Shown here: one piece after another, positions 6,824-64,000 of the stretch
Layout of the letters: each line of letters begins with the position of its first letter
Numbering within the stretch: position 1 is the stretch's first letter
Source: Glaciecola sp.
Lineage (GTDB): Bacteria; Pseudomonadota; Alphaproteobacteria; Caulobacterales; Parvularculaceae
Assembly: GCA_964219355.1 (NCBI GenBank)
Contig: CAXPOZ010000003.1
Span: 219,678 to 283,677, forward strand
Direction: 5' to 3'
Length of the DNA: 64,000 nucleotides
Notes under the pieces: model-generated
What the model saw: only the letters and a program-made list of their open reading frames with translations
Told to the model about the DNA's origin: nothing
Database searches by the model: none
Program-made: the position numbers and the translations under genes

Positions 6824-7329
6824 TCCTTATCCGTCACAAGCTTGATGAGCGCCTCGTCCCAGACGAAATCGACGGCGGGCGCGAGCTCGGTGAGACCAGA
6901 ACCCTCCGCGCCATTGGCAACGAAATCCATTTTCAGGATCGATCCGCCGCCCTCTTTCTCCCCGACACTGAGCGTGAGGGATGTCGCGAGCCCCATTTCC
7001 TGCATCGGCCCGAATGGCGCATGAAGGCGCAGCATCTCACCATGCATGACGGCCATGACCTGTCCATGGGTGACAGAGCCACCTTCCCAGTCCTCGCGCC
7101 AGACGCCGCCGGCTTCGAGTTCAAGCGTCATATGCCCCGGATCGCCGGAAAAGGAATGGAGCCACCATTCCTTCGGCTCGATCAGTTTTGCCCACAGATC
7201 CGCCTTGCTCAGCGTGCTTTCATGCTTCTGCGACAAGACCATGCGGGCGGATGATGAGGAGACGACTTCTGCCTGCGCCGTGGCTGTCATCAGAGCAGCG
7301 GCGCAAAGCGCAGGAATGAGACGGGTCAT
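6820..7329 (-). CDS. SRPBCC/START-fold exported protein
   Basis: Start 7329 (SD AGGAGGA); signal peptide ending AQA; WW..HSFSGD...LE.EAGG.W.E pattern. Confidence 0.7.
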   Translation of the reverse strand: MTRLIPALCAAALMTATAQAEVVSSSSARMVLSQKHESTLSKADLWAKLIEPKEWWLHSFSGDPGHMTLELEAGGVWREDWEGGSVTHGQVMAVMHGEMLRLHAPFGPMQEMGLATSLTLSVGEKEGGGSILKMDFVANGAEGSGLTELAPAVDFVWDEALIKLVTDKD

Positions 7330-7397
7330 GGCAATTCCTCCTGCCGGACACTCTGCCATAAAGACACCATGGCGCGCCATGCCCTCAATGGAAGGCA

Positions 7398-8357
7398 TTA
7401 GCGTAGCCTCGGGCGTAAGAGCCATGTGCCTGATTGCGAAATGAGCCGTCCGCCAGTGCCGAGCTTGAACCGCGCGACGCCCGGCGCGTGGTCCGTATCG
7501 ACTCCGCCTAAGTCGAGCATTGTCACGCCTTTTTTCTTCAGTTGCCGGATCGATTGCCAGAGGAGGAGGTTCATCGCATTCGCGTCGCGCCCGGACTTTG
7601 AGGCCCAGCCGATGTGATAGGTCGCCGTTGCCCCGTGTCGAAAGAGCAGCATGCCCGCCACCCGTTCCGCCCCGAGTTTCGCTTCGAAACCGATCACGGA
7701 ATCTTTGCCCGCTTTCTCCTGCCAGGCAGGCACCATGAGGGGCGATAACGCTCTGTAGCCTAATCTTTTCTGCTGACGACGTTCGGCCTCAAGCAACCAT
7801 TTATACTGCTCCGCCCGACGCCCCAGCGGATTGACGGTAAGCCCTGCTTTTTCAGCGGCCCGGAGCCGGTTGCGCCATTTGCCGTCCGCCTCCGCCAACA
7901 GCGCCTCTTCATCCTGCGTCAGGTCAAGAAGCACGGTGTGGTAGGGTGAGACAACGCGCCGGAGACGGAGCTTTTCCTCCGCCCCGCTCCCCTCCCCCTG
8001 CGGCATCAGCAGAAAAGCATGAAACCCCTTGATCGGCAGGGTCCGGCCCAGTTCATCGATCATCGCGGCGCGGGCGCCTTCGGGCAGACCTTCATTGAGC
8101 CAGACCGGCCCCATCATGGCGGTCGCAAGCCGGAAGCCAGGGAATTTGCGGACCGCGACTTGGCAGAGCCCAGCCGTCTCGCCTTCGGTGACCAATTCGG
8201 CCCGCAGAACCTCGCCGCCATGGGCCGCAATCACCTCGCCAAAGGCATGAGCCTGCTGGCAGGGCGCAAAAGCGGCGCGCACGAGTTGCTTATCCCAGGC
8301 TTTCGCTGAAAGACCGTTCCAGCGAATCATAGTTGTCTGCGGCGCATCGAATGGCAT
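7398..8357 (-). CDS. FemAB/FemX-like GNAT-family acyl- or peptidyl-transferase
   Basis: HTVLLDLTQDEEALL...KWRNRLRAAEK, YHIGW...NLLLWQSI...LDLGG. Confidence 0.75.
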   Translation of the reverse strand: MPFDAPQTTMIRWNGLSAKAWDKQLVRAAFAPCQQAHAFGEVIAAHGGEVLRAELVTEGETAGLCQVAVRKFPGFRLATAMMGPVWLNEGLPEGARAAMIDELGRTLPIKGFHAFLLMPQGEGSGAEEKLRLRRVVSPYHTVLLDLTQDEEALLAEADGKWRNRLRAAEKAGLTVNPLGRRAEQYKWLLEAERRQQKRLGYRALSPLMVPAWQEKAGKDSVIGFEAKLGAERVAGMLLFRHGATATYHIGWASKSGRDANAMNLLLWQSIRQLKKKGVTMLDLGGVDTDHAPGVARFKLGTGGRLISQSGTWLLRPRLR

Positions 8358-50691: not shown

Positions 50692-51819
50692 ATGTTTTCA
50701 CGCCGCAAGTTTCTGACAACAGGCGCATTGGGGTCGACCGCGATGCTCGCGGGCTGCGACTGCGCGGATCGCTGCGGCGGTCCGGCGACGGGCACAGCCT
50801 CTGGCGGCGGGGTCCGCGCGCGCGAGCTCAAGATGGTCACGACCTGGCCAAAGGATTTCCCCGGCCTTGGTGATGCGGCGGAGACCACGGCGCAGATGAT
50901 CGAGCAGATGTCGGGCGGCGCTCTAACCGTCAAACTCTATGCCGCGGGCGAACTGGTCGGCGCCTTTGACAGTTTCGATGCCGTCTCGGGCGGCAGCGCG
51001 GATATGTATCACGGGGCGGATTATTACTGGACCGGCAAGTCCCGCGCCTATCCTTATTTCACCGCTGTCCCCTTTGGCATGACCGCCGTCGAGCAGATCG
51101 CCTGGTTCGAGGCGGCAGGCGGTCAGGAGTTGTGGGATGAGCTGGCCGCAGGCTTCAACATCAAACCCTTCGCGGCTGGCAATACCGGTCACCAGATGGG
51201 CGGCTGGTTCAAACGCGAGATCAACACGCTCGATGACCTCAGGGGGCTGAAAATCCGCATGCCGGGGATCGGCGGAGAAGTCATGCGCCGCGCAGGTGCC
51301 GCCGCCGTCACCATTCCGGGCGGTGAGCTTTATCAGTCGCTGCAGTCGGGCGCGATCGACGCGACCGAATGGGTCGGCCCGTGGAATGACCTTGCCTTCG
51401 GCTTTTACCGCGAGGCGCCCTATTATTACTGGCCCGGCTTCCATGAGCCCGGCGCCCAGCTTTCCTTAGGCATGAATTTGGATGTCTGGAACGATATGAC
51501 GGCGCAGGAAAAGGCGATCATCCGCAATGCCTGCCGCGCCGCCAACCACCTCTCCATCGGCCAGTTCCAAGCCCAGAATGGCAAGGCGCTCGATATTCTG
51601 GTCAAAGAGCATAATGTCCAGCTGCGGCGGATGCCGCCCGACATTCTAGCGGCCCTCGCCGCCGCCACCCGCGAAGTGCTCGAAGAAATTGCGGCGTCCT
51701 CTGACATTGCCGGGCGCATCCATGCGAGCTTTGCCGAGAGCTTGCGCCAGTCGCTCAAATGGAATGCCATTTCTGACGAAGCCTATATGGCCGCCCGCCG
51801 GGAGTTGATCGGAGAATGA
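50692..51819 (+). CDS. dctP: TRAP solute-binding protein (TakP/DctP-like), Tat lipoprotein
   Basis: SRRKFL Tat motif plus LAGC; KMVTTWP, GLKIRMPG, ALQ-like SLQSGAIDATEWVGP. Confidence 0.9.
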   Translation: MFSRRKFLTTGALGSTAMLAGCDCADRCGGPATGTASGGGVRARELKMVTTWPKDFPGLGDAAETTAQMIEQMSGGALTVKLYAAGELVGAFDSFDAVSGGSADMYHGADYYWTGKSRAYPYFTAVPFGMTAVEQIAWFEAAGGQELWDELAAGFNIKPFAAGNTGHQMGGWFKREINTLDDLRGLKIRMPGIGGEVMRRAGAAAVTIPGGELYQSLQSGAIDATEWVGPWNDLAFGFYREAPYYYWPGFHEPGAQLSLGMNLDVWNDMTAQEKAIIRNACRAANHLSIGQFQAQNGKALDILVKEHNVQLRRMPPDILAALAAATREVLEEIAASSDIAGRIHASFAESLRQSLKWNAISDEAYMAARRELIGE

Positions 51820-52346
51820 TCGGCGCTCTTATACGTACCGTTCGCCGCGCGGAGCCGAGTGTCGCAGCGTATGTGTTGCGCGTCTTACCGATTATCATCA
51901 TCCCGGCCCTGATCATATCCGGGCTTCTCGCCTACATCGTCAGCGCGCTCGGCGTGGATGCAGGTTATGATGATATCCTATCAGAGGAAATTCCGGGCCT
52001 CTCTCCTTTAATGATGACGATCTTCACAGCGGTTTCCGTCGTCATCCTCGCGCCGGTTATTGAAACGCTGATGATGGCGGCTGTGTTCTGGGGCCTTCGC
52101 AAGATGAAGCTTCCCTATTGGGGGCTCGTCGTCGGACAAGTCGCGTTCTGGATTGCGCTCCATTCTCTTCAAGTACCCATCTGGGGCATTGGCATCGCCT
52201 GGGCGTTCTTCATCTTCTCAATTGCCTATCTGGCATGGGATGAAAAAGGCGGCATGGGGCAAGCGTTTGGTGTTGTTACTCTCCTTCATGCGCTCAATAA
52301 TCTCTTCTTCTTTGGACTGACCCTGTTGCCGGAGATGGCAACATGA
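51816..52346 (+). CDS. CPBP (Abi/CAAX)-like intramembrane protease homologue
   Basis: APVIETL (one Glu only), WIALH, LHALNN; ATGA overlaps on both sides. Confidence 0.65.
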   Translation: MIGALIRTVRRAEPSVAAYVLRVLPIIIIPALIISGLLAYIVSALGVDAGYDDILSEEIPGLSPLMMTIFTAVSVVILAPVIETLMMAAVFWGLRKMKLPYWGLVVGQVAFWIALHSLQVPIWGIGIAWAFFIFSIAYLAWDEKGGMGQAFGVVTLLHALNNLFFFGLTLLPEMAT

Positions 52347-52945
52347 ACCTGATGATTTTGCTGATTGTGATGGGGCTGATCTCCCTGCTGCCGCTTGTAG
52401 GCGCGACAGGTGTATTGCGCAGACCCATCCATAATTTTGTCAAAATCCTTGAATGGATCGTCAAGGCGGCCTTCTTCATCTCTGCCGTATGCGGCGCATG
52501 TGTCGCGCTGGCCCAGCTTTCTGCCGTGATTACCCGCAACCTTTTCGGGGTGAACTTTATCTGGCTGCAGGAGAGCGCAATCTACTTCTTCGGCCTGATG
52601 TTCCTCCTCGCCGGCGGGGCGATCCTCCTGATGGATGCGCATGTCAGGGTCGATGTCTTTTATGCCAAATGGTCCGAACGCAGACAGCGCCTCGTCAATA
52701 TTCTCGGGCTCTATCTCTTTGTCATCCCAGTCGGCTTTCTGATCCTCTGGGCTTCCGGCCCTTACGTCGCCGCAAGCTGGGCGACCTATGAAGGTTCAAA
52801 TGATCCGAGCGGCATTCAGGGTGTCTTCCTCCTGAAATCACTCGTGCCCGCCTTCGGCAGCCTGCTGATCATGGCCGCGACCGTGGCGATCGAACGCCAC
52901 CTCAACCCCGCCTTCCATGGCGAATATCATCCGGGTGAGGTGTGA
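52343..52945 (+). CDS. dctQ: TRAP small permease
   Basis: WLQES, HVRVDVFY, EGSNDPSG. Confidence 0.9.
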   Translation: MNLMILLIVMGLISLLPLVGATGVLRRPIHNFVKILEWIVKAAFFISAVCGACVALAQLSAVITRNLFGVNFIWLQESAIYFFGLMFLLAGGAILLMDAHVRVDVFYAKWSERRQRLVNILGLYLFVIPVGFLILWASGPYVAASWATYEGSNDPSGIQGVFLLKSLVPAFGSLLIMAATVAIERHLNPAFHGEYHPGEV

Positions 52946-52946
52946 G

Positions 52947-54560
52947 ATGGTGGACAATCTGATCCTCTGTTTCTGCGCCTGCGCGAACTGGCTCGATATC
53001 GCCATGGTGATCACGCTCTGCGTGCTCCTGCTCGCAGGATTTCCGGCCGCTTTTACTCTCGCTGGGGTCGCGCTCCTTTATGGCTTGCTCGGCCTGGCGG
53101 TCGGCGCCTTCGATCCGGCCTTCATCGCCGAGCCCTTCCCGATCCGCATCTTCGGTATCGTGAATAATCAGGTGCTGCTGGCGCTGCCGATGTTCATCCT
53201 GATGGGCGTCATACTTGAGCGCTCGAAAATCGCCGAAGAATTGCTCGACACAATGGCAAAGCTCTTCGGCGCGATGCGCGGCGGGCTCGGAATTTCCGTC
53301 ATGCTGGTCGGCGCGCTGCTCGCCGCCTCCACCGGCATTGTCGGCGCGACCGTCGTCACCATGGGGCTTCTCTCTCTGCCAACCATGCTCAAGCGAGGAT
53401 ATGATCCGGGTCTCGCCAGCGGTACGATTGCCGCTGCCGGAACGTTGGGCCAGATCATTCCGCCCTCGATCGTTCTCATCCTGCTTGGTGATGTCATCTC
53501 CAACGCCTATCAGGAAAGCCAGCTCGCGCAGGGGATTTTCGCGCCGCGCGCCGTGTCGGTCGGGGATTTGTTCGCGGGCGCACTGATCCCCGGCCTGCTG
53601 CTGGTCGTCATCTATCTACTTTATATCGGCGGTGTGGCGCTCTTCCGCGGCAGCAAAGCCCCGGCCGTCCCCGCAAATGAGCATATCGTCTTGAGCGAGA
53701 TCGGCCCGAAACTGCTCGGTACGCTGATCCCGCCGCTGCTCCTGATCATCGCCGTTCTCGGCTCGATCCTTGCCGGTAAGGCAACCGCCACCGAAGCCGC
53801 TTCCATCGGCGCCATCGGCGCGCTCCTGATTGCGGGCAGCCGCCGGGACATGGCGCAGGGGTTCGCGCGTTTGTTATCCATGGCGGGCATCCTCGCCATC
53901 GTCGTGCTGGTCATCCTCAATGAGACAATCGACCTCCGGCTTGGTCGTGAGGTGATCAGCGGGATCGAGCAGACCGGCATCGTGCTCGCCTTCATCGCCT
54001 GCGGCGTACTGGCGGCAGGCATCCTTTGCGCCGGGCTGTCTCTCCTCAAACGCTCCGTCCTCTGGCCGGTCCTGACCAAGACGGCGGAAGTCAACGGCAT
54101 GGTCTTCACCATCCTGATCGGGGCCGCGCTTTTCAGCCTCGTCTTCCGGGGCCTTGGCGGCGATGACACGATTGCCGCCGCACTCAGCCAGACCCCTGGC
54201 GGGGTCGTCGGCGCGATGATCGTCGTTATGCTGGTCCTGTTCGTACTCGGATTTTTCCTCGACTTCATCGAGATCACGCTAGTCGCGATCCCGCTGGTCG
54301 CGCCTGCGCTTCTGACGATGGGGCTCGATCCGATCTGGCTCGGCGTCATGCTGGCGGTGAATCTGCAGACTAGCTTCCTGACCCCGCCCTTCGGCTTTGC
54401 GCTGTTCTATTTACGCGGGGTCGCACCGCCGGAAGTCCGTACGATGCAGATCTACAAGGGCGCCCTGCCCTTTGTTCTCATCCAGATCCTGATGCTGGGT
54501 ATTCTGGCACTGTTCCCGCAGCTCGCGACCGCTTTGCCGCATGCGATCTACGGCAATTGA
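52947..54560 (+). CDS. dctM: TRAP large permease
   Basis: LALPMFILMG, GTLGQIIPPSI, NLQTSFLTPPFGFALFYL. Confidence 0.95.
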   Translation: MVDNLILCFCACANWLDIAMVITLCVLLLAGFPAAFTLAGVALLYGLLGLAVGAFDPAFIAEPFPIRIFGIVNNQVLLALPMFILMGVILERSKIAEELLDTMAKLFGAMRGGLGISVMLVGALLAASTGIVGATVVTMGLLSLPTMLKRGYDPGLASGTIAAAGTLGQIIPPSIVLILLGDVISNAYQESQLAQGIFAPRAVSVGDLFAGALIPGLLLVVIYLLYIGGVALFRGSKAPAVPANEHIVLSEIGPKLLGTLIPPLLLIIAVLGSILAGKATATEAASIGAIGALLIAGSRRDMAQGFARLLSMAGILAIVVLVILNETIDLRLGREVISGIEQTGIVLAFIACGVLAAGILCAGLSLLKRSVLWPVLTKTAEVNGMVFTILIGAALFSLVFRGLGGDDTIAAALSQTPGGVVGAMIVVMLVLFVLGFFLDFIEITLVAIPLVAPALLTMGLDPIWLGVMLAVNLQTSFLTPPFGFALFYLRGVAPPEVRTMQIYKGALPFVLIQILMLGILALFPQLATALPHAIYGN

Positions 54561-56045: not shown

Positions 56046-56121
56046 GCCCCTATAGCTCAGCTGGTAGAGCAACTGATTTGTAATCAGTAGGTCCGCGGTT
56101 CGAGTCCGTGTGGGGGCACCA
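56046..56121 (+). tRNA. tRNA-Thr (anticodon TGT)
   Basis: 76 nt GCCCCTATAGCTCAGCTGGTAGAGC...CTGATT-TGT-AATCAG...GGTTCGAGTCC...GGGGGCACCA; cloverleaf and encoded CCA. Confidence 0.97.
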
Positions 56122-58984: not shown

Positions 58985-59800
58985 CTATGGGATGACACGG
59001 TCATCATGGATGAAATCGACATCCGGATTTTCGCCGATCATCATCATGGCCGCCGCTTCGAAAGGTTCTCCCCACGGCGGTGCGGCGTAGGGCATCTTAT
59101 TGCCTGACAGCAGCGCCGTCTGCCACGCTGCCACATCTTCAAACCAGAGCTCTGCGACGCGGCGATCCGGTGACCGGGCGCTGGCCGATGTATAAAAAGC
59201 TAGCCGCTTTAGACCAGGCAGTTTTGCAAGTGCGGGTTCACGCACCTCTGCCCACCAGTGGTCCCCCTCCTCCGGCGTGACACCATCGGGATAGTCAAAG
59301 ACGATGATCCAGCGCAGATAGGGCGTTTCCTTCGGCGGGGTCGGGAGAGTTACCGGCATCCGCGTCGGATTGACCGGGATCGTTGCCGTTTCAGTCGTAT
59401 AAAGCGTATTCCCTCGCCAGCCGCCCGGCGGCGGCGTATAGGATGAAAGCTCCCCGTAAAGATTACGCACCCGCGTCTGCTGGAATGATTCATAGGAATC
59501 AAAATGGATCTCAGTCATGCGCCCGAATTGCAGCGGGTATCGCTCCAACGCCATCTGTGGCGGCAGATAGCTGCGAAAGGAGACATAATTGCGCTGCCAC
59601 GCTTTCATCGCCCGCCTAACCTGCGGTGCGTGATAGGTCATGTACCATCGGTCGAGCGCCAGCTGATCTGCACCGGGTTTGAGATTGATCAGGATATAAT
59701 GCTTGATCGCCTCTTCCGCCCGGGCAGAAAGCAGCATTCCCGATGTGATCATGGCTGTCATCAGGACAAGGAGTTCACGTAAGCCAGCCTTTCTTGTCAT
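58985..59800 (-). CDS. Tandem EthD-like (dimeric alpha/beta barrel) protein with signal peptide
   Basis: Two repeats (LDRWYMTYHAPQV...MTEIHFDSYE; GDHWW.EV....L..LPGL...VAELWFEDV); N-terminus ends ARA-EE. Confidence 0.65.
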   Translation of the reverse strand: MTRKAGLRELLVLMTAMITSGMLLSARAEEAIKHYILINLKPGADQLALDRWYMTYHAPQVRRAMKAWQRNYVSFRSYLPPQMALERYPLQFGRMTEIHFDSYESFQQTRVRNLYGELSSYTPPPGGWRGNTLYTTETATIPVNPTRMPVTLPTPPKETPYLRWIIVFDYPDGVTPEEGDHWWAEVREPALAKLPGLKRLAFYTSASARSPDRRVAELWFEDVAAWQTALLSGNKMPYAAPPWGEPFEAAAMMMIGENPDVDFIHDDRVIP

Positions 59801-59813
59801 TTATTCCTCCTCC

Positions 59814-61799
59814 TCAGAGGGTCAGCGCGACGAGGCGATGCGGCATCTTCCGGAATCCCATGCCGCAGACAATAAATTGCCGCCCATCAATGGCATACGT
59901 CATTGGTGGGCCATGGGTGTTGTCGGGCAGGCTGACCTCTCCCATCACTTCGCCGGAAGCTTTGTCATAGGCACGAAGGACTTTACTCGCGAATGGATGA
60001 TGCGGCCCCTCTCCCATGATCAGTGCCGTCCGTGTCAGGAGCGGTCCTGTTCGCGCCGTCGTCCCCAGCCAGCCTGTCTTGAACGCCCTGTATTTAGGAT
60101 GATCCATCCCTCCTGGTCCGTTGGGCCGCGACCAGTCGATCTCTCCGCGATTGAGGTCAATGGCGGTGATCTTGCCGTAAGGAGGTTTCAGAATGGGATA
60201 GCCGCGTGGTCCGTGGACGACCGTTGTCCGCCCCGCAATCTCATGATTGCCTTCCTCTACGTCGATACGCTCCCCTGACTGATCAATCGCCATGGCAACG
60301 GGGACGGAAATGGAAGGCACAAAGAGCCTTCCCGCTTCAGGATCGACAGCAGCGCCCCACCAATTTGCGCCGCCGACCCAGCTTGGGAACACTGTCGTCA
60401 GCTTCTCCCCAAGCGGCGTGTAGAGCGGGCCGATATGATAATTGTCCAGCAGCGCCTCGGCTTTGGCCCGCAATTCGGGCGTGAAATCTATCAGCTCATC
60501 ACGAAAGTCGCCCTGCCGCTCAAAAGCTGGTGGCTTGGTCGGATAGGGCTGAGTGGGTGAAGCTCGCTCTGCACGGATCGTCGAGGCTGGCACCTCTCGT
60601 TCTTCGATTGGCCAGACCGGTTCACCTGTCCGGCGATCAAAGGTAAAGCAGTAGCCTTGTTTAGTGACTTGCGCGATGGCTGGAATCTTCCGTCCCTCGA
60701 CGCTGATATCAATCAAGTTCGGCGCACACGGAAGGTCATAATCCCAGAGGTCGTGATGGACGATCTGGAAATGCCAGATCCTATTCCCTGTCTCGGCATC
60801 AAGCGCAACCAACGAATTGCCGTAAAGATTGTCTCCGGGCCGCTCCCCGCCAAAGAAATTATTCGTGGGACAGCTTGTTGGAATATAGACTATGCCGCGC
60901 ACATCATCGGCACTCATCGGAGCCCAGACATTCGCATTGCCAGCACGCAAAGCCGAGCCATCCTCCCAGCTTTCAAAGCCGGGATCTCCTCTTCGCGGGA
61001 TGACATGGAACACCCATTTAAGCTCGCCGGTGCGCACATCAAAGGCGCGAACGTCGCCAGCCGGCATCGGCGTCTGGACAACCTGATCATTGATATACTG
61101 ACCAACGACGACCGTCTCGCCGCAAATCAGCGGCGGTGAGGTTGTTCCAAACAGCGTCGAGGGGGCCTCCCCCAGTGGCTCGCGCAGGCCCACCGTGCCA
61201 AGATCAATCTCGCCGCCTTCTCCAAAGGGGTTGACCGGCTGACCCGTTACAGCATCAAGAGCGATCAGGCGGTTATCGCCGGTGGCAATAAAAACCCTCC
61301 CCTGCTCACCATCAGACCAATAGGCGACCCCGCGGTGCTGAAAGCCCTTACTGGTCGATAATCCCTTTTTCCACGTGCCCGGATCATAAACCCAAAGGGT
61401 CTGGCCTGTCTCGGGGTCGATGGCGCAGACCTGCGACATGGCGGTCGACGTAAAAAGCCGTCCATCCACCATGATCGGCGTCGCCTGAAATTCGCCAGGC
61501 CGGAGTTCGGGATTTTCTGCAAGGATCGCTTCATCAGGAGAGCGCCACTCCCAGGCGATTTTCAGCTCGCTGAAATTGCCACCATCGATCTGGTCGAGCG
61601 CCGAATATTTCGTGGCTGCATTACTGGCGCCATAGACCGGCCATTCATCCGCCGACTTATTTGGAGAGGAGAAGATCCCTATTCGGCCCGACCGCCACGC
61701 ACATCCCGAGACGAGCAGGCCAGAGACACCGCCCATCAACGTCCGGCGGCATAGTTGCCAGTTTCTTGGTCTCATCCTGAATGGTTCAGACCCGGACAT
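59814..61799 (-). CDS. PQQ-dependent dehydrogenase (glucose/quinate-like, no N-terminal TM domain), Tat lipoprotein
   Basis: EWPVYG...KYSALDQI, FQATPIMVDG, HRGVAYW, LYGNSLVALDAETG, HHDLWDYD, PMTY; RRTLM plus VSGC. Confidence 0.92.
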   Translation of the reverse strand: MSGSEPFRMRPRNWQLCRRTLMGGVSGLLVSGCAWRSGRIGIFSSPNKSADEWPVYGASNAATKYSALDQIDGGNFSELKIAWEWRSPDEAILAENPELRPGEFQATPIMVDGRLFTSTAMSQVCAIDPETGQTLWVYDPGTWKKGLSTSKGFQHRGVAYWSDGEQGRVFIATGDNRLIALDAVTGQPVNPFGEGGEIDLGTVGLREPLGEAPSTLFGTTSPPLICGETVVVGQYINDQVVQTPMPAGDVRAFDVRTGELKWVFHVIPRRGDPGFESWEDGSALRAGNANVWAPMSADDVRGIVYIPTSCPTNNFFGGERPGDNLYGNSLVALDAETGNRIWHFQIVHHDLWDYDLPCAPNLIDISVEGRKIPAIAQVTKQGYCFTFDRRTGEPVWPIEEREVPASTIRAERASPTQPYPTKPPAFERQGDFRDELIDFTPELRAKAEALLDNYHIGPLYTPLGEKLTTVFPSWVGGANWWGAAVDPEAGRLFVPSISVPVAMAIDQSGERIDVEEGNHEIAGRTTVVHGPRGYPILKPPYGKITAIDLNRGEIDWSRPNGPGGMDHPKYRAFKTGWLGTTARTGPLLTRTALIMGEGPHHPFASKVLRAYDKASGEVMGEVSLPDNTHGPPMTYAIDGRQFIVCGMGFRKMPHRLVALTL

Positions 61800-61811
61800 A
61801 TCTCCCTCCGG

Positions 61812-63533
61812 CTAAGAGAAGAATTCATCGAACTGACTGTTCGCAGAACCCCGCAATTCGTTTTTCAGCAATTTCCCCGCAGCATTGCGTGGTAGCGGCT
61901 TACCTGTGAACTCGATGACGCTCGGGATCTTGAAATGGGAAAGCGCGCCACCGACCCATTCCTGAAGGACTGTTTCGTTGACCGTACCTTCCCGTTTCAA
62001 GCGGACAATGGCTCGCACTTCCTCACCGTAGAGATCACTCGACATGGCGACGACAGCGACTTCATTCACCTCCGGGTGGCTTTCGATGCAATGCTCGACC
62101 TCCTCTGCAGAAATGTTCTCCCCGCCCCGGATGATGATGTCTTTCTTGCGACCCAAAAGGTAGAGAAACCCTTCCGTATCGAGACGGCCAACATCCCCTG
62201 TGCGAAGCCAGCCCTCTGGAGATATCATCTTTGCTGTCTCTTCGGGATCGTTCCAGTAACCGGACATGACGAAAGGCCCGCGCACCTGCACCTCCCCCTT
62301 TTCCCCAACCGGTAGCTCATCCTCGTATTCATCGACGATCCGGATGTCCGCTGTGGCGAAGGCGCGGCCAACCGACCCCGGATGATTTTCAAGATCGATG
62401 CCCGTATTCATCGCGATGATGCCGCTAGTCTCAGTCAAGCCGTAAGCATTACTGACGGCACCGAGAGAGGGAAAAAGCGCTTGCGCACGCTCACGCAAAT
62501 TGGGATGCGAGGGCGCAGCTCCATAGCCGAGGGTTGTCAGGGTTGAGAGGTCGAGCCCCTGTCGATTACCCAACAAGCAGACCTTATGAACCATCGCCGG
62601 TACAGCAGACCATCTGGTTATCTTTTCACCTGCAATCACCCGCAGCGTCTCGGAGGCATCAAATCGGCCGTGCGGGATGACAATCGTTTGTCCCCCAATC
62701 AATCCGCCAAGAACCGCGCCTTGCCCGCCGCCGACATGGAAGAAAGGCAGGCTTGCCAACAGTTTTACCTTACTTGTCGCCGTATTCAGATGTGGCGCGC
62801 GCGCAAGCTCGACCGCCGTTGTCAGGGCAATATTCATGCTCGCAGCTATCCAGGCCCCGTGACTGATGACCGCCGCTTTGGCCCTGCCCGTCGTCCCGCT
62901 AGTGAACATCATGGATGCAGGATGATGCTCATCGAGCTCGGGCAGAGTGGTGAGCGGTTCAGCAAGGAGCGCTGAAAGCGGCCGCGCCATACCACCGAAT
63001 TCGTCTCCTTCCTCATCCCACATGAAAAGCCGTCCCCGGATTTCCTGCACAATTTCTGCTGGCATTTTGCCGATGCGCTTTTGATCGCCGATCAGGATGC
63101 TGGCACCGGTGAGTTGAAGGCCATGTGAAAGTTCCGCCCCGCGCCACCAGCCATTGAGGGCAACTGGCGTCATCCCGGCGAGCAACGCCGCCCAGAAACT
63201 TGCGATCCAGTCTGGGTGATTGGCACCAAGGATTGCAACGCGATCACCGATTTCTCCGATAGCTGACAAACCGCTCGCCAATCGCCTGATACGATCTGCA
63301 AATTCTACATAGCTGATACGCTCATCACCAAAGATGATGCATTCCTGATCGCCATATGCCTCAATGCGCGGGAAGAGCTGGCCAAGATTTTGCGGCCGCT
63401 GCGCAAACCGACGGACCTGACCCGGTACTGCTTCCTCCAGCTCAAACGGGCTGCCCGGAGCTGTCATCTGCGCGATGAGATCCGAATAGCTGGCGGTGCC
63501 GGAGGTCATTTTTTGCGCGGTCATATCCTGCAT
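61812..63533 (-). CDS. Class I adenylate-forming enzyme / acyl-CoA synthetase
   Basis: FTSGTTGRAK, YGLTETSG, WLRTGDVG, GRKKDIIIRGGENI, RNAAGKLLK. Confidence 0.93.
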   Translation of the reverse strand: MQDMTAQKMTSGTASYSDLIAQMTAPGSPFELEEAVPGQVRRFAQRPQNLGQLFPRIEAYGDQECIIFGDERISYVEFADRIRRLASGLSAIGEIGDRVAILGANHPDWIASFWAALLAGMTPVALNGWWRGAELSHGLQLTGASILIGDQKRIGKMPAEIVQEIRGRLFMWDEEGDEFGGMARPLSALLAEPLTTLPELDEHHPASMMFTSGTTGRAKAAVISHGAWIAASMNIALTTAVELARAPHLNTATSKVKLLASLPFFHVGGGQGAVLGGLIGGQTIVIPHGRFDASETLRVIAGEKITRWSAVPAMVHKVCLLGNRQGLDLSTLTTLGYGAAPSHPNLRERAQALFPSLGAVSNAYGLTETSGIIAMNTGIDLENHPGSVGRAFATADIRIVDEYEDELPVGEKGEVQVRGPFVMSGYWNDPEETAKMISPEGWLRTGDVGRLDTEGFLYLLGRKKDIIIRGGENISAEEVEHCIESHPEVNEVAVVAMSSDLYGEEVRAIVRLKREGTVNETVLQEWVGGALSHFKIPSVIEFTGKPLPRNAAGKLLKNELRGSANSQFDEFFS

Positions 63534-63692
63534 GAATTCGTCCGATATTTGAATAGTCAGGTGAAACTATGCTTCTCACCAGACTGGCCCGCGGTCGGGA
63601 AAAAAGATGACCAGTGAGGAGAGAAATTCCTTCGCCTGGAGGAAATAAGCGCTCAGATTTCCGCAACTGGTCATCGAGTTTTGAGCATCAAA

Positions 63693-63739
63693 GGGCAGGC
63701 TTCTGACCCGGAGGGGCAACTTCCCGGTCATGCCTGCCC
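63693..63739. other. GC-rich stem-loop immediately after the TonB-dependent receptor stop
   Basis: GGGCAGGC...TGACC(C)GG / CCGGTCA...GCCTGCCC nested inverted repeat; no U-tract. Confidence 0.6.
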
Positions 63740-63745
63740 CCAAGA

Positions 63746-64000
63746 TTACCAGTCTACCGTCAGCGTAACGCCATAGAGACTGGGAGTATTGTGATACTCA
63801 TTATTGTTGACATTGACGAGGAGATATTCCTCATCCGTGACATTCTTTCCGTAGACGGTCAGACGCCAGTCATCCGCATCGACACCAAGAGAGAAATCCA
63901 GGATTTCAAAGCTCTCCGAACGCCGCGTGTGGCTGGCATTGTCAAAGCCGCCGCCTTCGGCCTGCAGACCGACAGAGATCAGCCCGTCAATGTTCTCGCT
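63746..64000 (-). CDS. TonB-dependent receptor, C-terminal 84 aa (5' part outside the window)
   Basis: Manual translation: ...ILDFSLGVDADDWRLTVYGKNVTDEEYL...PSLYGVTLTVDW*; xNxxDxxY motif and terminal amphipathic strand ending in W. Confidence 0.88.
   Translation of the reverse strand, partial: SENIDGLISVGLQAEGGGFDNASHTRRSESFEILDFSLGVDADDWRLTVYGKNVTDEEYLLVNVNNNEYHNTPSLYGVTLTVDW

What the first reader, a model, noticed from the sequence alone, without database searches (positions are those of the whole stretch)
58985..64000. TBDR / acyl-CoA ligase / Tat-lipoprotein PQQ dehydrogenase / exported EthD operon of unknown substrate
Seen: four co-oriented genes with 13-nt and 12-nt gaps between the last three. 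The dehydrogenase lacks the membrane anchor of classical glucose dehydrogenase and has RRTLM plus a lipobox. The TBDR tail is absent from the ORF track. Inference: a periplasm-plus-cytoplasm pathway for an imported alcohol, aldehyde or acid (aromatic, terpenoid or lipid). No pqq biosynthesis genes are in the window.
Basis: partly seen in the sequence, partly recalled or inferred. Interest (0 to 1): 0.55.

Follow-up and report, generated by a model that had tools for sequence, protein, structure and literature searches.

The report
PQQ dehydrogenase paired with chalcone-isomerase-like protein
The four genes are real. Their conserved core is an undescribed pair of exported proteins, an anchorless glucose-dehydrogenase-type PQQ enzyme and a relative of bacterial chalcone isomerase, set in a TetR-controlled ester and lipid breakdown regulon in bacteria that mostly cannot make PQQ.

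Summary
**Observation: confirmed.** On the minus strand lie a TonB receptor (740 aa, running off the window), an acyl-CoA ligase, a PQQ dehydrogenase and an exported "EthD" protein. The gaps are 212, 12 and 13 nt.

**What is new**
- **"EthD" is a chalcone isomerase relative.** It is a two-domain homologue of bacterial chalcone isomerase (CHI; profile E 1.8e-17, Foldseek TM 0.65-0.71). The catalytic His33, Tyr48 and Thr71 of CHI are invariant here.
- **The pair is conserved.** The dehydrogenase-CHI-like pair occurs in 14 of 14 orthologous genome loci and 24 of 25 evaluable metagenome loci. The paired dehydrogenases form one clade (support 100).
- **Export signals.** Both families usually carry Tat signals, and about half of the dehydrogenases have a lipobox.
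- **No PQQ synthesis.** 13 of 15 carrier genomes lack pqqC. This genome also lacks pqqE and PqqU.
- **A small regulon.** A palindrome, TGTTAC-N6-GTAACA, marks the TetR-receptor promoter across species. This genome has four sites, all before operons for exported esterases, DUF1254/DUF1214 proteins and beta-oxidation.

**Best reading (about 0.5).** An imported ester is hydrolysed in the periplasm. Its alcohol is oxidised by the dehydrogenase, and the carbonyl product is enolised, isomerised or beta-eliminated by the CHI-like enzyme. The acid is then CoA-activated and beta-oxidised. The substrate is unknown.

This scan has noted this same stretch before, but not on other DNA.

The parts
58985..59800 (-). 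Exported two-domain chalcone-isomerase-like protein (annotated EthD), 271 aa. Signal peptide ends about ARA/EE.
   Evidence: ORF; Pfam and NCBIfam EthD hits on each half. Profile versus PDB CHI 4d06/3zph gives E 1.8e-17, colinear over both domains. AF2 model pLDDT 87.9. The Foldseek top hits are all E. ramulus CHI, E about 1e-12, TM 0.65-0.71. Invariant H57, Y72 and T96 correspond to CHI His33, Tyr48 and Thr71.
59801..59813 (-). 13-nt spacer holding the Shine-Dalgarno sequence GGAGGAGGA (59813-59805) for the CHI-like gene
   Evidence: Sequence read.
59814..61799 (-). Anchorless PQQ-type eight-bladed propeller dehydrogenase of the glucose/quinate dehydrogenase clade, 661 aa. It has a twin-arginine motif (RRTLM) and a lipobox (LVSGC).
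   Evidence: PF01011 644 bits; TIGR03074 424 bits, below the 832 cut-off, matching profile 149-764 only. 32% identical to E. coli Gcd, with H262, D354, W404, T424, D466 and K493 conserved. AF2 pLDDT 82.8; best folds are PQQ alcohol dehydrogenases. Tat and lipobox conservation. It is the only full PQQ propeller dehydrogenase in the genome.
61800..61811 (-). 12-nt spacer holding the Shine-Dalgarno sequence GGAGGGAG (61809-61802) for the long start of the dehydrogenase
   Evidence: Sequence read.
61812..63533 (-). Cytoplasmic acyl-CoA ligase, 573 aa, no signal peptide
   Evidence: AMP-binding plus AMP-binding_C. Best NCBIfam match is CasG steroid-24-oyl-CoA synthetase, 458 bits, below the 750 cut-off. 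Best solved relative is M. tuberculosis FadD5. Only about a dozen close orthologue clusters exist.
63534..63745 (-). 212-nt spacer between the receptor and the ligase. A GC-rich hairpin (arms 63732-63739 and 63693-63700) sits just after the receptor stop codon. A second 10-nt inverted repeat has arms at 63666-63675 and 63606-63615.
   Evidence: Sequence; repeats. The RNA fold is -38.1 kcal/mol, z -3.1, with 0 of 200 shuffles as stable. It is followed only by a weak U tract. No TetR operator and no sigma-70-like promoter was found here.
63746..64000 (-). Last 84 codons of a TonB-dependent receptor. The whole gene is 740 aa and runs to window-equivalent 65968.
   Evidence: Plug plus barrel domains. 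It is not PqqU: 37 bits against a cut-off of 1200. A divergent TetR gene (L003 7742-8410) and the operator cGTTACTCTCCAGTAACa (L003 7677-7692) lie just beyond the window.

Best explanation
The window holds the end of a TetR-controlled catabolic regulon for an imported ester of lipid-like character.

**Proposed route**
1. The TonB receptor takes the compound across the outer membrane (inferred).
2. Exported or membrane-anchored serine esterases split it. Their location follows from the signals; the reaction is inferred.
3. The alcohol part is oxidised to a carbonyl by a Tat-exported, lipid-anchored dehydrogenase of the glucose/quinate dehydrogenase type. This enzyme must use scavenged PQQ, because the genome has no pqq synthesis genes (inferred from conserved active-site residues).
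4. The carbonyl product is handled by the strictly co-conserved periplasmic chalcone-isomerase-like protein. By analogy with CHI, His57 removes the proton next to the carbonyl while Tyr72 (with Arg94) holds the enolate. The outcome would be a double-bond shift, a ring opening or a beta-elimination (inferred from homology).
5. The acid that results is taken up, activated by the acyl-CoA ligase, and degraded by the co-regulated pair of acyl-CoA dehydrogenases, the MaoC hydratase, the SDR and the thiolase.

**What is shown:** gene order, homologies, the conservation of the pair, the operator sites, and the absence of pqq genes.

**What is inferred:** the substrate, the reaction and the electron acceptor.
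For: **The pair is conserved.**
- The CHI-like gene lies directly after the dehydrogenase in 14 of 14 genome loci whose dehydrogenase is at least 52% identical, and in 0 of 66 loci at 49% or less.
- Starting from the CHI-like side, 24 of 25 evaluable metagenome loci have the dehydrogenase just upstream.
- All paired dehydrogenases form one clade with support 100.

**CHI homology and catalytic residues:**. Residue roles come from PMC9694015 and PMC8361940. The His, Tyr, Arg, Thr and Glu set is also kept across 61 more distant representatives.

**Dehydrogenase active-site residues are conserved**.

**Export signals:**

**Esterases of several families sit beside the pair in almost every lineage**. 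An AMP-ligase is present in 7 of the 14 genome loci and in six metagenome loci.

**Operator.**
- It is conserved across species.
- This genome has only four sites, all in front of relevant operons.
- It occurs exactly once per genome, at the cluster, in four sphingomonads.

**Tight coupling:** strong Shine-Dalgarno sequences sit inside the 12- and 13-nt gaps.
Against: - No member of either family in this clade has been characterised, and no paper in the searched library links the two.
- The dehydrogenase resembles enzymes for sugars and cyclitols rather than lipid alcohols, so the lipid-like reading rests on the neighbours only.
- CHI-like proteins outside the true CHI branch showed no CHI activity in one screen (PMC8361940). 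The helical lid of CHI is a loop in this model.
- No electron acceptor is encoded near the pair in any of the 15 loci.
- No PQQ source or PqqU importer was found.
- Two stray CHI-like copies lie without a dehydrogenase (L143; G183).
- A stable hairpin after the receptor gene leaves co-transcription open.
Confidence: 0.5

Rival explanations
1. The CHI-like protein is not an enzyme of the pathway. It is a partner of the dehydrogenase: a subunit, or a periplasmic carrier that captures scavenged PQQ (a flat tricyclic tricarboxylate) and loads it into the apo-enzyme.
For: The pairing holds whatever the neighbouring esterase or receptor type. 13 of 15 carrier genomes lack pqqC, and this genome has no PqqU. 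The conserved pocket is rich in arginines (R51, R76, R94, R110, R163), within a fold known to hold flat polycyclic ligands.
Against: The residues kept invariant are exactly the catalytic His and Tyr of CHI. The same residues are kept in relatives with no export signal, which are presumably cytoplasmic. The two Solimonas genomes that make PQQ also keep the pair. Two stand-alone copies exist.
Confidence: 0.2
2. The TonB receptor of the operon imports the cofactor (PQQ) or a lanthanide chelate for the dehydrogenase, rather than the carbon substrate.
For: The genome has one quinoprotein and no pqq genes or PqqU. PqqU is reported as largely absent from Alphaproteobacteria (PMC12124388). The dehydrogenase keeps the Asp-x-Asp motif (D353, D355) that a marine survey discusses as lanthanide-compatible in glucose dehydrogenases (PMC11996626). 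A receptor lies next to the pair in most loci.
Against: The adjacent receptors belong to different lineages (about 50% identical in seven genome loci, 25-32% in the others), whereas a cofactor importer should be conserved. The receptor shares its operator with esterase and beta-oxidation operons, as expected for a substrate-induced regulon. E. coli Gcd has the same Asp-x-Asp motif and, from my own knowledge, is not known to use lanthanides.
Confidence: 0.12
3. The receptor gene is transcribed apart from ligase-dehydrogenase-CHI-like, so the four genes are two units that merely lie side by side.
For: The spacer is 212 nt, with a hairpin of -38 kcal/mol right after the receptor stop codon. The ligase is not at this position in the other lineages.
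Against: The only operator near these genes lies upstream of the receptor; none is in the spacer. The U tract after the hairpin is weak. No promoter-like site was found in the spacer. In sphingomonads the receptor, esterase, dehydrogenase, CHI-like gene and ligase follow one another behind a single operator.
Confidence: 0.3
4. The propeller protein is an 'empty' quinoprotein that does not use PQQ at all. It binds another ligand or cofactor that is loaded in the cytoplasm before Tat export.
For: Tat signals are the rule in this clade, and most carriers cannot make PQQ. NCBIfam already recognises an 'acido-empty-quinoprotein' family, to which the protein has a partial match (TIGR04528, 216 bits, below its 650 cut-off).
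Against: The equivalents of Gcd His262, Asp354, Trp404, Thr424, Asp466 and Lys493 are invariant. PQQ scavenging by non-producers is well documented (PMC12124388).
Confidence: 0.08

Closest known systems
Membrane-bound quinoprotein glucose dehydrogenase (E. coli Gcd) and the glucose/quinate/shikimate dehydrogenase family (TIGR03074)
   Same: Eight-bladed PQQ propeller, 32% identical to Gcd. The equivalents of His262, Asp354, Trp404, Thr424, Asp466 and Lys493 are conserved, and there is no Cys-Cys ring. Like E. coli, the host makes no PQQ.
   Different: It has no five-helix membrane anchor, but a Tat signal and a lipobox instead. It scores below the family cut-off (424 against 832). Asn355, Asp730 and His775 are not kept. 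It is always paired with a CHI-like gene. The host has no PqqU.
Bacterial chalcone isomerase of Eubacterium ramulus (PDB 3zph, 4d06)
   Same: Two ferredoxin-like domains of the same length and order. The catalytic His33, the carbonyl-binding Tyr48, Thr71, Glu72 and Arg27-Trp28 are kept.
   Different: About 16% identity. It is exported (Tat in most orthologues). Gln69 is replaced by an invariant Arg. The lid helices are replaced by a loop carrying a conserved TPPPGGW motif. There is no flavonoid pathway context. It probably corresponds to the inactive, more distant 'branch B' type of CHI-like protein.
Periplasmic PQQ alcohol oxidation systems (ped/exa clusters of Pseudomonas; pva operon for polyvinyl alcohol, where a PQQ dehydrogenase is followed by a hydrolase acting on the oxidised product)
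   Same: Periplasmic PQQ-dependent oxidation feeding a cytoplasmic acid-activating route. In the pva case, from my own knowledge, the logic is 'oxidise first, then cleave next to the new carbonyl', with a PHB-depolymerase-type esterase.
   Different: Those dehydrogenases are of the type I/II alcohol dehydrogenase kind, with a dedicated cytochrome c or haem domain. None is encoded here, and the partner here is a CHI-like protein.
EthD of the Rhodococcus eth cluster (PF07110) and the TIGR02118 'EthD family reductase'
   Same: Weak domain matches on each half (31 and 36 bits), and the same dimeric alpha+beta barrel superfamily.
   Different: It is a tandem two-domain exported protein whose best sequence and structure match is CHI, not single-domain EthD. 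There is no P450 system nearby.

Membership tests
PQQ-dependent eight-bladed propeller dehydrogenases (PF01011) | Full-length match to the propeller domain and an eight-bladed fold | tested here: met
   PF01011 644 bits over profile 1-595. AF2 pLDDT 82.8; the top 30 Foldseek hits are PQQ dehydrogenases, E 1e-35 to 1e-26.
PQQ-dependent eight-bladed propeller dehydrogenases (PF01011) | Catalytic base and PQQ/metal-contacting residues | tested here: met
   The equivalents of Gcd H262, D354, W404, T424, D466 and K493 are invariant in nine and in 27 sequences. The roles of these residues are from my own recall of the Gcd mutagenesis literature; I could not confirm them in the held library.
PQQ-dependent eight-bladed propeller dehydrogenases (PF01011) | PQQ actually bound and used | not testable with these tools
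   The genome lacks pqqC and pqqE and PqqU. The cofactor supply is unexplained.
Membrane-bound glucose/quinate/shikimate dehydrogenases (TIGR03074) | Score over the curated cut-off, and an N-terminal five-helix anchor | tested here: not met
   424 bits against a cut-off of 832.65, matching profile 149-764 only. The anchor is absent in the alignment with Gcd.
Bacterial chalcone isomerase (CHIera type) | Two ferredoxin-like domains, catalytic then solvent-exposed | tested here: met
   The profile hits both domains colinearly, E 1.8e-17. Foldseek TM 0.65-0.71 over about 241 residues; the next-best fold scores 3e-7.
Bacterial chalcone isomerase (CHIera type) | Catalytic His33 with Tyr48 on the carbonyl | tested here: met
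   H57 and Y72 are invariant in 40 orthologues and align to His33 and Tyr48. Roles are from PMC9694015 and PMC8361940.
Bacterial chalcone isomerase (CHIera type) | A-ring pocket (Gln69, Thr71, Gln101) and a closing helical lid with Arg125 | tested here: not met
   Thr71 is kept (T96), but Gln69 is an invariant Arg (R94). The region 113-133 is a loop of lower confidence without helices. Gln101 and Arg125 lie outside the aligned stretches.
Bacterial chalcone isomerase (CHIera type) | Flavanone or chalcone isomerase activity, in a flavonoid pathway context | not testable with these tools
   No enoate reductase or phloretin hydrolase is nearby. The protein is exported, unlike CHIera.
Tat-exported lipoprotein | Twin-arginine motif before a hydrophobic stretch that ends in a lipobox Cys | tested here: met
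   RRTLM...LVSGC with the long start. [ST]RR is present in nearly all orthologues and a lipobox in about half. A Shine-Dalgarno sequence supports the long start. Export itself is not testable here.
CasG steroid-24-oyl-CoA synthetase (NF052580) | Score over the equivalog cut-off | tested here: not met
   458 bits against 750. It is still the best-scoring model, ahead of PRK06187 at 352. No HsaD-type steroid ring pathway is in the genome.
PqqU PQQ importer (NF041535) | Score over the equivalog cut-off | tested here: not met
   The operon's receptor scores 37 bits against 1200. The best hit in the genome scores 59.6 bits; the E. coli control passes.
TetR-controlled regulon | A conserved palindromic operator in the divergent promoter, repeated before co-regulated operons | tested here: met
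   TGTTAC-N6-GTAACA is found in 9 of 11 orthologous spacers, perfect or with one mismatch. This genome has four sites against 1.9 expected, three of them within 10.3 kb and all upstream of operons. It occurs once per genome in four sphingomonads, with a reversed control of 0. Binding was not tested.

The most novel reading that the evidence does not exclude
The dehydrogenase and the CHI-like protein form a new periplasmic 'oxidise, then eliminate' machine. A scavenged-PQQ enzyme makes a ketone or aldehyde. A chalcone-isomerase-fold enzyme then uses His/Tyr enolate chemistry to break a C-O bond or shift a double bond next to it. This would be the first non-flavonoid, extracytoplasmic function for the bacterial CHI fold. 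It would also define a class of Tat-exported, anchorless glucose-dehydrogenase-type quinoproteins in Alphaproteobacteria that get PQQ by a route other than PqqU.
Probability: 0.3. Interest if true: 0.75.

Novelty: new variant of a known kind. Interest (0 to 1): 0.6.

Why it matters
- **Two unassigned families gain a testable link.** The anchorless glucose-dehydrogenase-like quinoproteins are widespread in Alphaproteobacteria, Acidobacteriota and others. The small superfamily of CHI-like proteins has 429 representatives among 1.84 billion. Here they form a strictly conserved gene pair with a defined regulator and operator, which makes both directly testable in culturable strains (Sphingopyxis terrae NBRC 15098, Novosphingobium sp. 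MD-1, Brevundimonas aurifodinae C11, Solimonas).
- **It exposes a cofactor puzzle.** Alphaproteobacteria are thought to be PQQ producers that lack PqqU. Yet most carriers of this module have neither pqqC nor, in this genome, PqqU.
- **It could add a new reaction type.** If the oxidise-then-enolise reading holds, it adds a new reaction type to periplasmic catabolism of esters, possibly of plant, algal or synthetic origin.

Tried and rejected
Gene neighbourhoods were obtained instead with the search for related loci and tblastn scripts.

**Readings tested and dropped**
- **Steroid pathway:** the ligase's best model is CasG, but below cut-off, and the genome has no HsaD (best 90.6 bits against 400). 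Full steroid catabolism was dropped.
- **PqqU:** neither the operon's receptor nor any other receptor in the genome qualifies.
- **Dedicated cytochrome c acceptor:** no CxxCH protein lies near the pair in any of the 15 loci.
- **Haem-binding reading of the two-domain barrel (chlorite dismutase/DyP type):** those folds score far below CHI, and the only invariant His is the CHI catalytic one.
- **True chalcone isomerase:** rejected on the Gln69Arg change, the missing lid helices, the export signal and the context.

**Searches that found nothing**
- Literature searches for DUF1254/DUF1214 function, for the Gcd residue roles, and for any paper linking EthD or CHI with PQQ enzymes.
- The solved DUF1254/DUF1214 structures are all 'uncharacterised'.
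- The esterases' nearest solved relatives (p-nitrobenzyl esterase, fumonisin B1 esterase, feruloyl esterase) do not point to one substrate.
- The neighbours of a stray CHI-like copy (G183) were uninformative.

Full report
**1. What is in the sequence**

- 58985-59800 (271 aa)
- 59814-61799 (661 aa)
- 61812-63533 (573 aa)
- 63746-64000, which runs off the window.

The gaps are 13, 12 and 212 nt. The window is C3:219678-283677 of a 3.4-Mb genome that is 99.84% complete.

Reading on in the genome, the last ORF is a complete 740-aa TonB-dependent receptor with Plug and barrel domains.

Pfam and NCBIfam give:
- an EthD-type match on each half of the 271-aa protein
- a full-length PQQ propeller (PF01011, 644 bits)
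- an AMP-binding acyl-CoA ligase. Its best model is CasG steroid-24-oyl-CoA synthetase, at 458 bits and below the 750 cut-off.

The 12- and 13-nt gaps each hold a strong Shine-Dalgarno sequence: GGAGGGAG and GGAGGAGGA.

**2. The dehydrogenase**

- It is closest to the membrane glucose/quinate/shikimate dehydrogenase family. The score is 424 bits against TIGR03074, below the 832 cut-off.
- The match starts at profile position 149, so the five-helix anchor is missing.
- It is 32% identical to E. coli Gcd. The equivalents of His262, Asp354, Trp404, Thr424, Asp466 and Lys493 are invariant; Asn355, Asp730 and His775 are not. The roles of those residues are from my own recall of the Gcd literature, and I could not find the papers in the held library.
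- No solved structure is close. The best sequence match is 135 bits, to type II alcohol dehydrogenases. The AF2 model (pLDDT 82.8) is an eight-bladed PQQ propeller.
- With the long start codon the protein begins with RRTLM and the lipobox LVSGC. The Shine-Dalgarno sequence supports that start. So do the orthologues: almost all carry [ST]RR, and about half carry a lipobox Cys. The collection's 640-aa gene call (P0005) cuts this signal off.
- It is the only full PQQ propeller dehydrogenase in the genome.

**3. The 'EthD' protein is a chalcone isomerase relative**

- A profile of 40 orthologues hits the bacterial chalcone isomerase of Eubacterium ramulus at E 1.8e-17. The match covers both domains, in the same order and at nearly the same positions.
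- The AF2 model (pLDDT 87.9) finds only that enzyme at the top of Foldseek: E about 1e-12, TM 0.65-0.71 over about 241 residues. The next folds, putative monooxygenases and chlorite dismutases, follow at 3e-7 and TM below 0.5.
- The invariant residues of the family align to known CHI residues:

| This family | CHI residue | Role in CHI |
|---|---|---|
| H57 | His33 | catalytic base that removes the proton next to the carbonyl |
| Y72 | Tyr48 | holds the carbonyl oxygen |
| T96 | Thr71 | binds the A-ring hydroxyl |
| E97 | Glu72 | conserved position |
| R94 | Gln69 | replaced by an invariant Arg here |

  The roles come from PMC9694015 and PMC8361940.
- The helical lid of CHI is a loop with a conserved TPPPGGW motif.
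- 75 of 91 close homologues with a full N-terminus have RR in their presequence. This copy has RK and a Sec-like signal ending ARA/EE.
- The superfamily is small. Of 1.84 billion representatives, 429 match at E up to 1e-3, 142 at up to 1e-10 and 51 at up to 1e-30.
- In 61 full-length representatives, His is kept in 55, Tyr in 49, Arg in 42 and Glu in 53. About half have no presequence.

The protein is therefore not a member of the true chalcone isomerases. It very probably shares their acid-base chemistry.

**4. The pair is the conserved unit**

- A scan of one genome per species gave 80 loci. All 14 loci whose dehydrogenase is at least 52% identical have the CHI-like gene directly downstream. 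None of the 66 loci at 49% or less has it.
- The 14 loci come from Hyphomonadaceae, Sphingopyxis terrae NBRC 15098, Sphingomonas, Sphingobium, Novosphingobium sp. MD-1, Phenylobacterium, Brevundimonas aurifodinae and two Solimonas.
- Searching metagenomes from the CHI-like side gave 29 loci. Of the 25 with enough upstream DNA, 24 have the dehydrogenase just upstream; L143 is the exception.
- A second stray copy lies in a fragmented genome, G183.
- In a tree of 97 dehydrogenases rooted on Gcd, all paired ones form one clade with support 100. The single 'unpaired' row inside it (L123) is a scoring artefact caused by a 9-nt gene overlap.
- A sample of 400 genomes of the same class, including three of the same order, holds no orthologue.
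- The region begins at a tRNA-Thr gene, and G+C falls there. This fits acquisition by transfer.

**5. Companions and regulon**

Outside the window, on the same strand, lie two further gene groups:
- a type-B carboxylesterase with a signal peptide, three membrane-anchored DUF1214/DUF1254 proteins and an anchored alpha/beta hydrolase
- two acyl-CoA dehydrogenases, an MFS transporter and a thiolase.

In other lineages the pair sits beside other hydrolases:
- PHB-depolymerase/feruloyl-esterase-like esterases
- beta-lactamase-fold hydrolases
- a patatin
- a cupin-esterase
- an RTX dienelactone-hydrolase-like protein.

It also sits beside a TonB receptor of one lineage or another, a TetR or GntR regulator, an AMP-ligase and DUF1254-DUF1214 fusions. 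The ligase of this window has an orthologue (49% identity) only in one Hyphomonadaceae genome. Sphingomonads carry a different ligase (31% identity) after the pair.

The TetR-receptor spacers share the palindrome TGTTAC-N6-GTAACA. This genome has four GTTAC-N6-GTAAC sites, against 1.9 expected from composition. They lie:
- in the TetR-receptor spacer
- before the esterase operon
- before the acyl-CoA dehydrogenase-MFS-thiolase operon
- on another contig, before a MaoC hydratase-SDR pair.

In four sphingomonad genomes the perfect 18-mer occurs exactly once, at the cluster.

The 212-nt spacer has no such site. It has a hairpin of -38.1 kcal/mol (z -3.1) right after the receptor stop codon, followed by a weak U tract. 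Read-through with attenuation seems more likely than a separate unit, but this is not shown.

**6. The cofactor problem**

- The genome has no pqqC and no pqqE (best 55 bits), and only a pqqB-like protein at 107 bits against a 245 cut-off.
- The pqqC search works: it scored 353 and 349 bits in the two Solimonas genomes.
- Of the 14 other carrier genomes, 12 lack pqqC. Several of these are metagenome-assembled and may be incomplete.
- There is no PqqU in this genome.
- PMC12124388 reports PqqU as largely absent from Alphaproteobacteria and takes them to be producers. The carriers found here do not fit that picture.
- No c-type cytochrome is encoded near the pair in any of the 15 loci, so the electron acceptor is also open.

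**7. Reading**

The best-supported mechanism is a TetR-controlled route for an imported ester:
1. Periplasmic hydrolysis.
2. PQQ-dependent oxidation of the released alcohol.
3. His/Tyr-mediated enolisation of the new carbonyl by the CHI-like enzyme, giving isomerisation, ring opening or beta-elimination.
4. CoA activation and beta-oxidation of the acid.

Candidate substrates are phytyl, wax, steryl or xanthophyll esters, hydroxycinnamoyl-quinate esters and polyester oligomers. They cannot be ranked with the present data.

Rivals are:
- a non-catalytic role of the CHI-like protein, as a subunit or PQQ carrier
- a cofactor- or metal-importing role of the receptor
- separate transcription of the receptor gene
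- an 'empty' quinoprotein.

No paper in the searched library describes this pairing.

Noticed in passing
window 56046-56121 and onward: A tRNA-Thr (TGT) gene marks a drop in G+C from about 0.60-0.64 to 0.53-0.58. The drop lasts through the cluster. Three genomes of the same order lack the dehydrogenase, which suggests an acquired island.
   Followed up: partly
window 59814-61799 (start region 61736-61799): The public gene call for the dehydrogenase (640 aa, P0005) starts at Met22 and removes the twin-arginine motif. The long start has a strong Shine-Dalgarno sequence and matches the orthologues.
   Followed up: yes
L003 9351-11103 (outside the window, C3:287350-289102): DUF1214, DUF1254 and DUF1214 are encoded as three separate, overlapping, membrane-anchored genes here. 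They are fused into one DUF1254-DUF1214 protein in sphingomonads and Hyphomonadaceae. Their function is unknown, and they sit in the same TetR regulon.
   Followed up: partly
L127 7001-8588: One metagenome locus carries two tandem copies of the CHI-like gene after the dehydrogenase.
   Followed up: no
G025:C2:2797227-2802967; also G013, G196, G099: Anchorless paralogues of the dehydrogenase (37-42% identical, no CHI-like partner) occur in up to three tandem copies per genome in other Alphaproteobacteria. There are large clades in Bradyrhizobium and Acidobacteriota. All are uncharacterised.
   Followed up: no
window 50692-54560: A TRAP transporter (DctP, DctQ, DctM; the DctM is unusually long at 547 aa) lies upstream of the island. 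A TRAP system also neighbours the pair in locus L042.
   Followed up: no
It is not part of this system.
   Followed up: partly
L166 (G183:C137) 6917-7675 and L143 7001-7714: Two CHI-like copies (42-48% identical) stand without any dehydrogenase within several kb. One lies between gyrA, a histidine kinase gene and a cyclopropane-fatty-acid synthase gene.
   Followed up: partly
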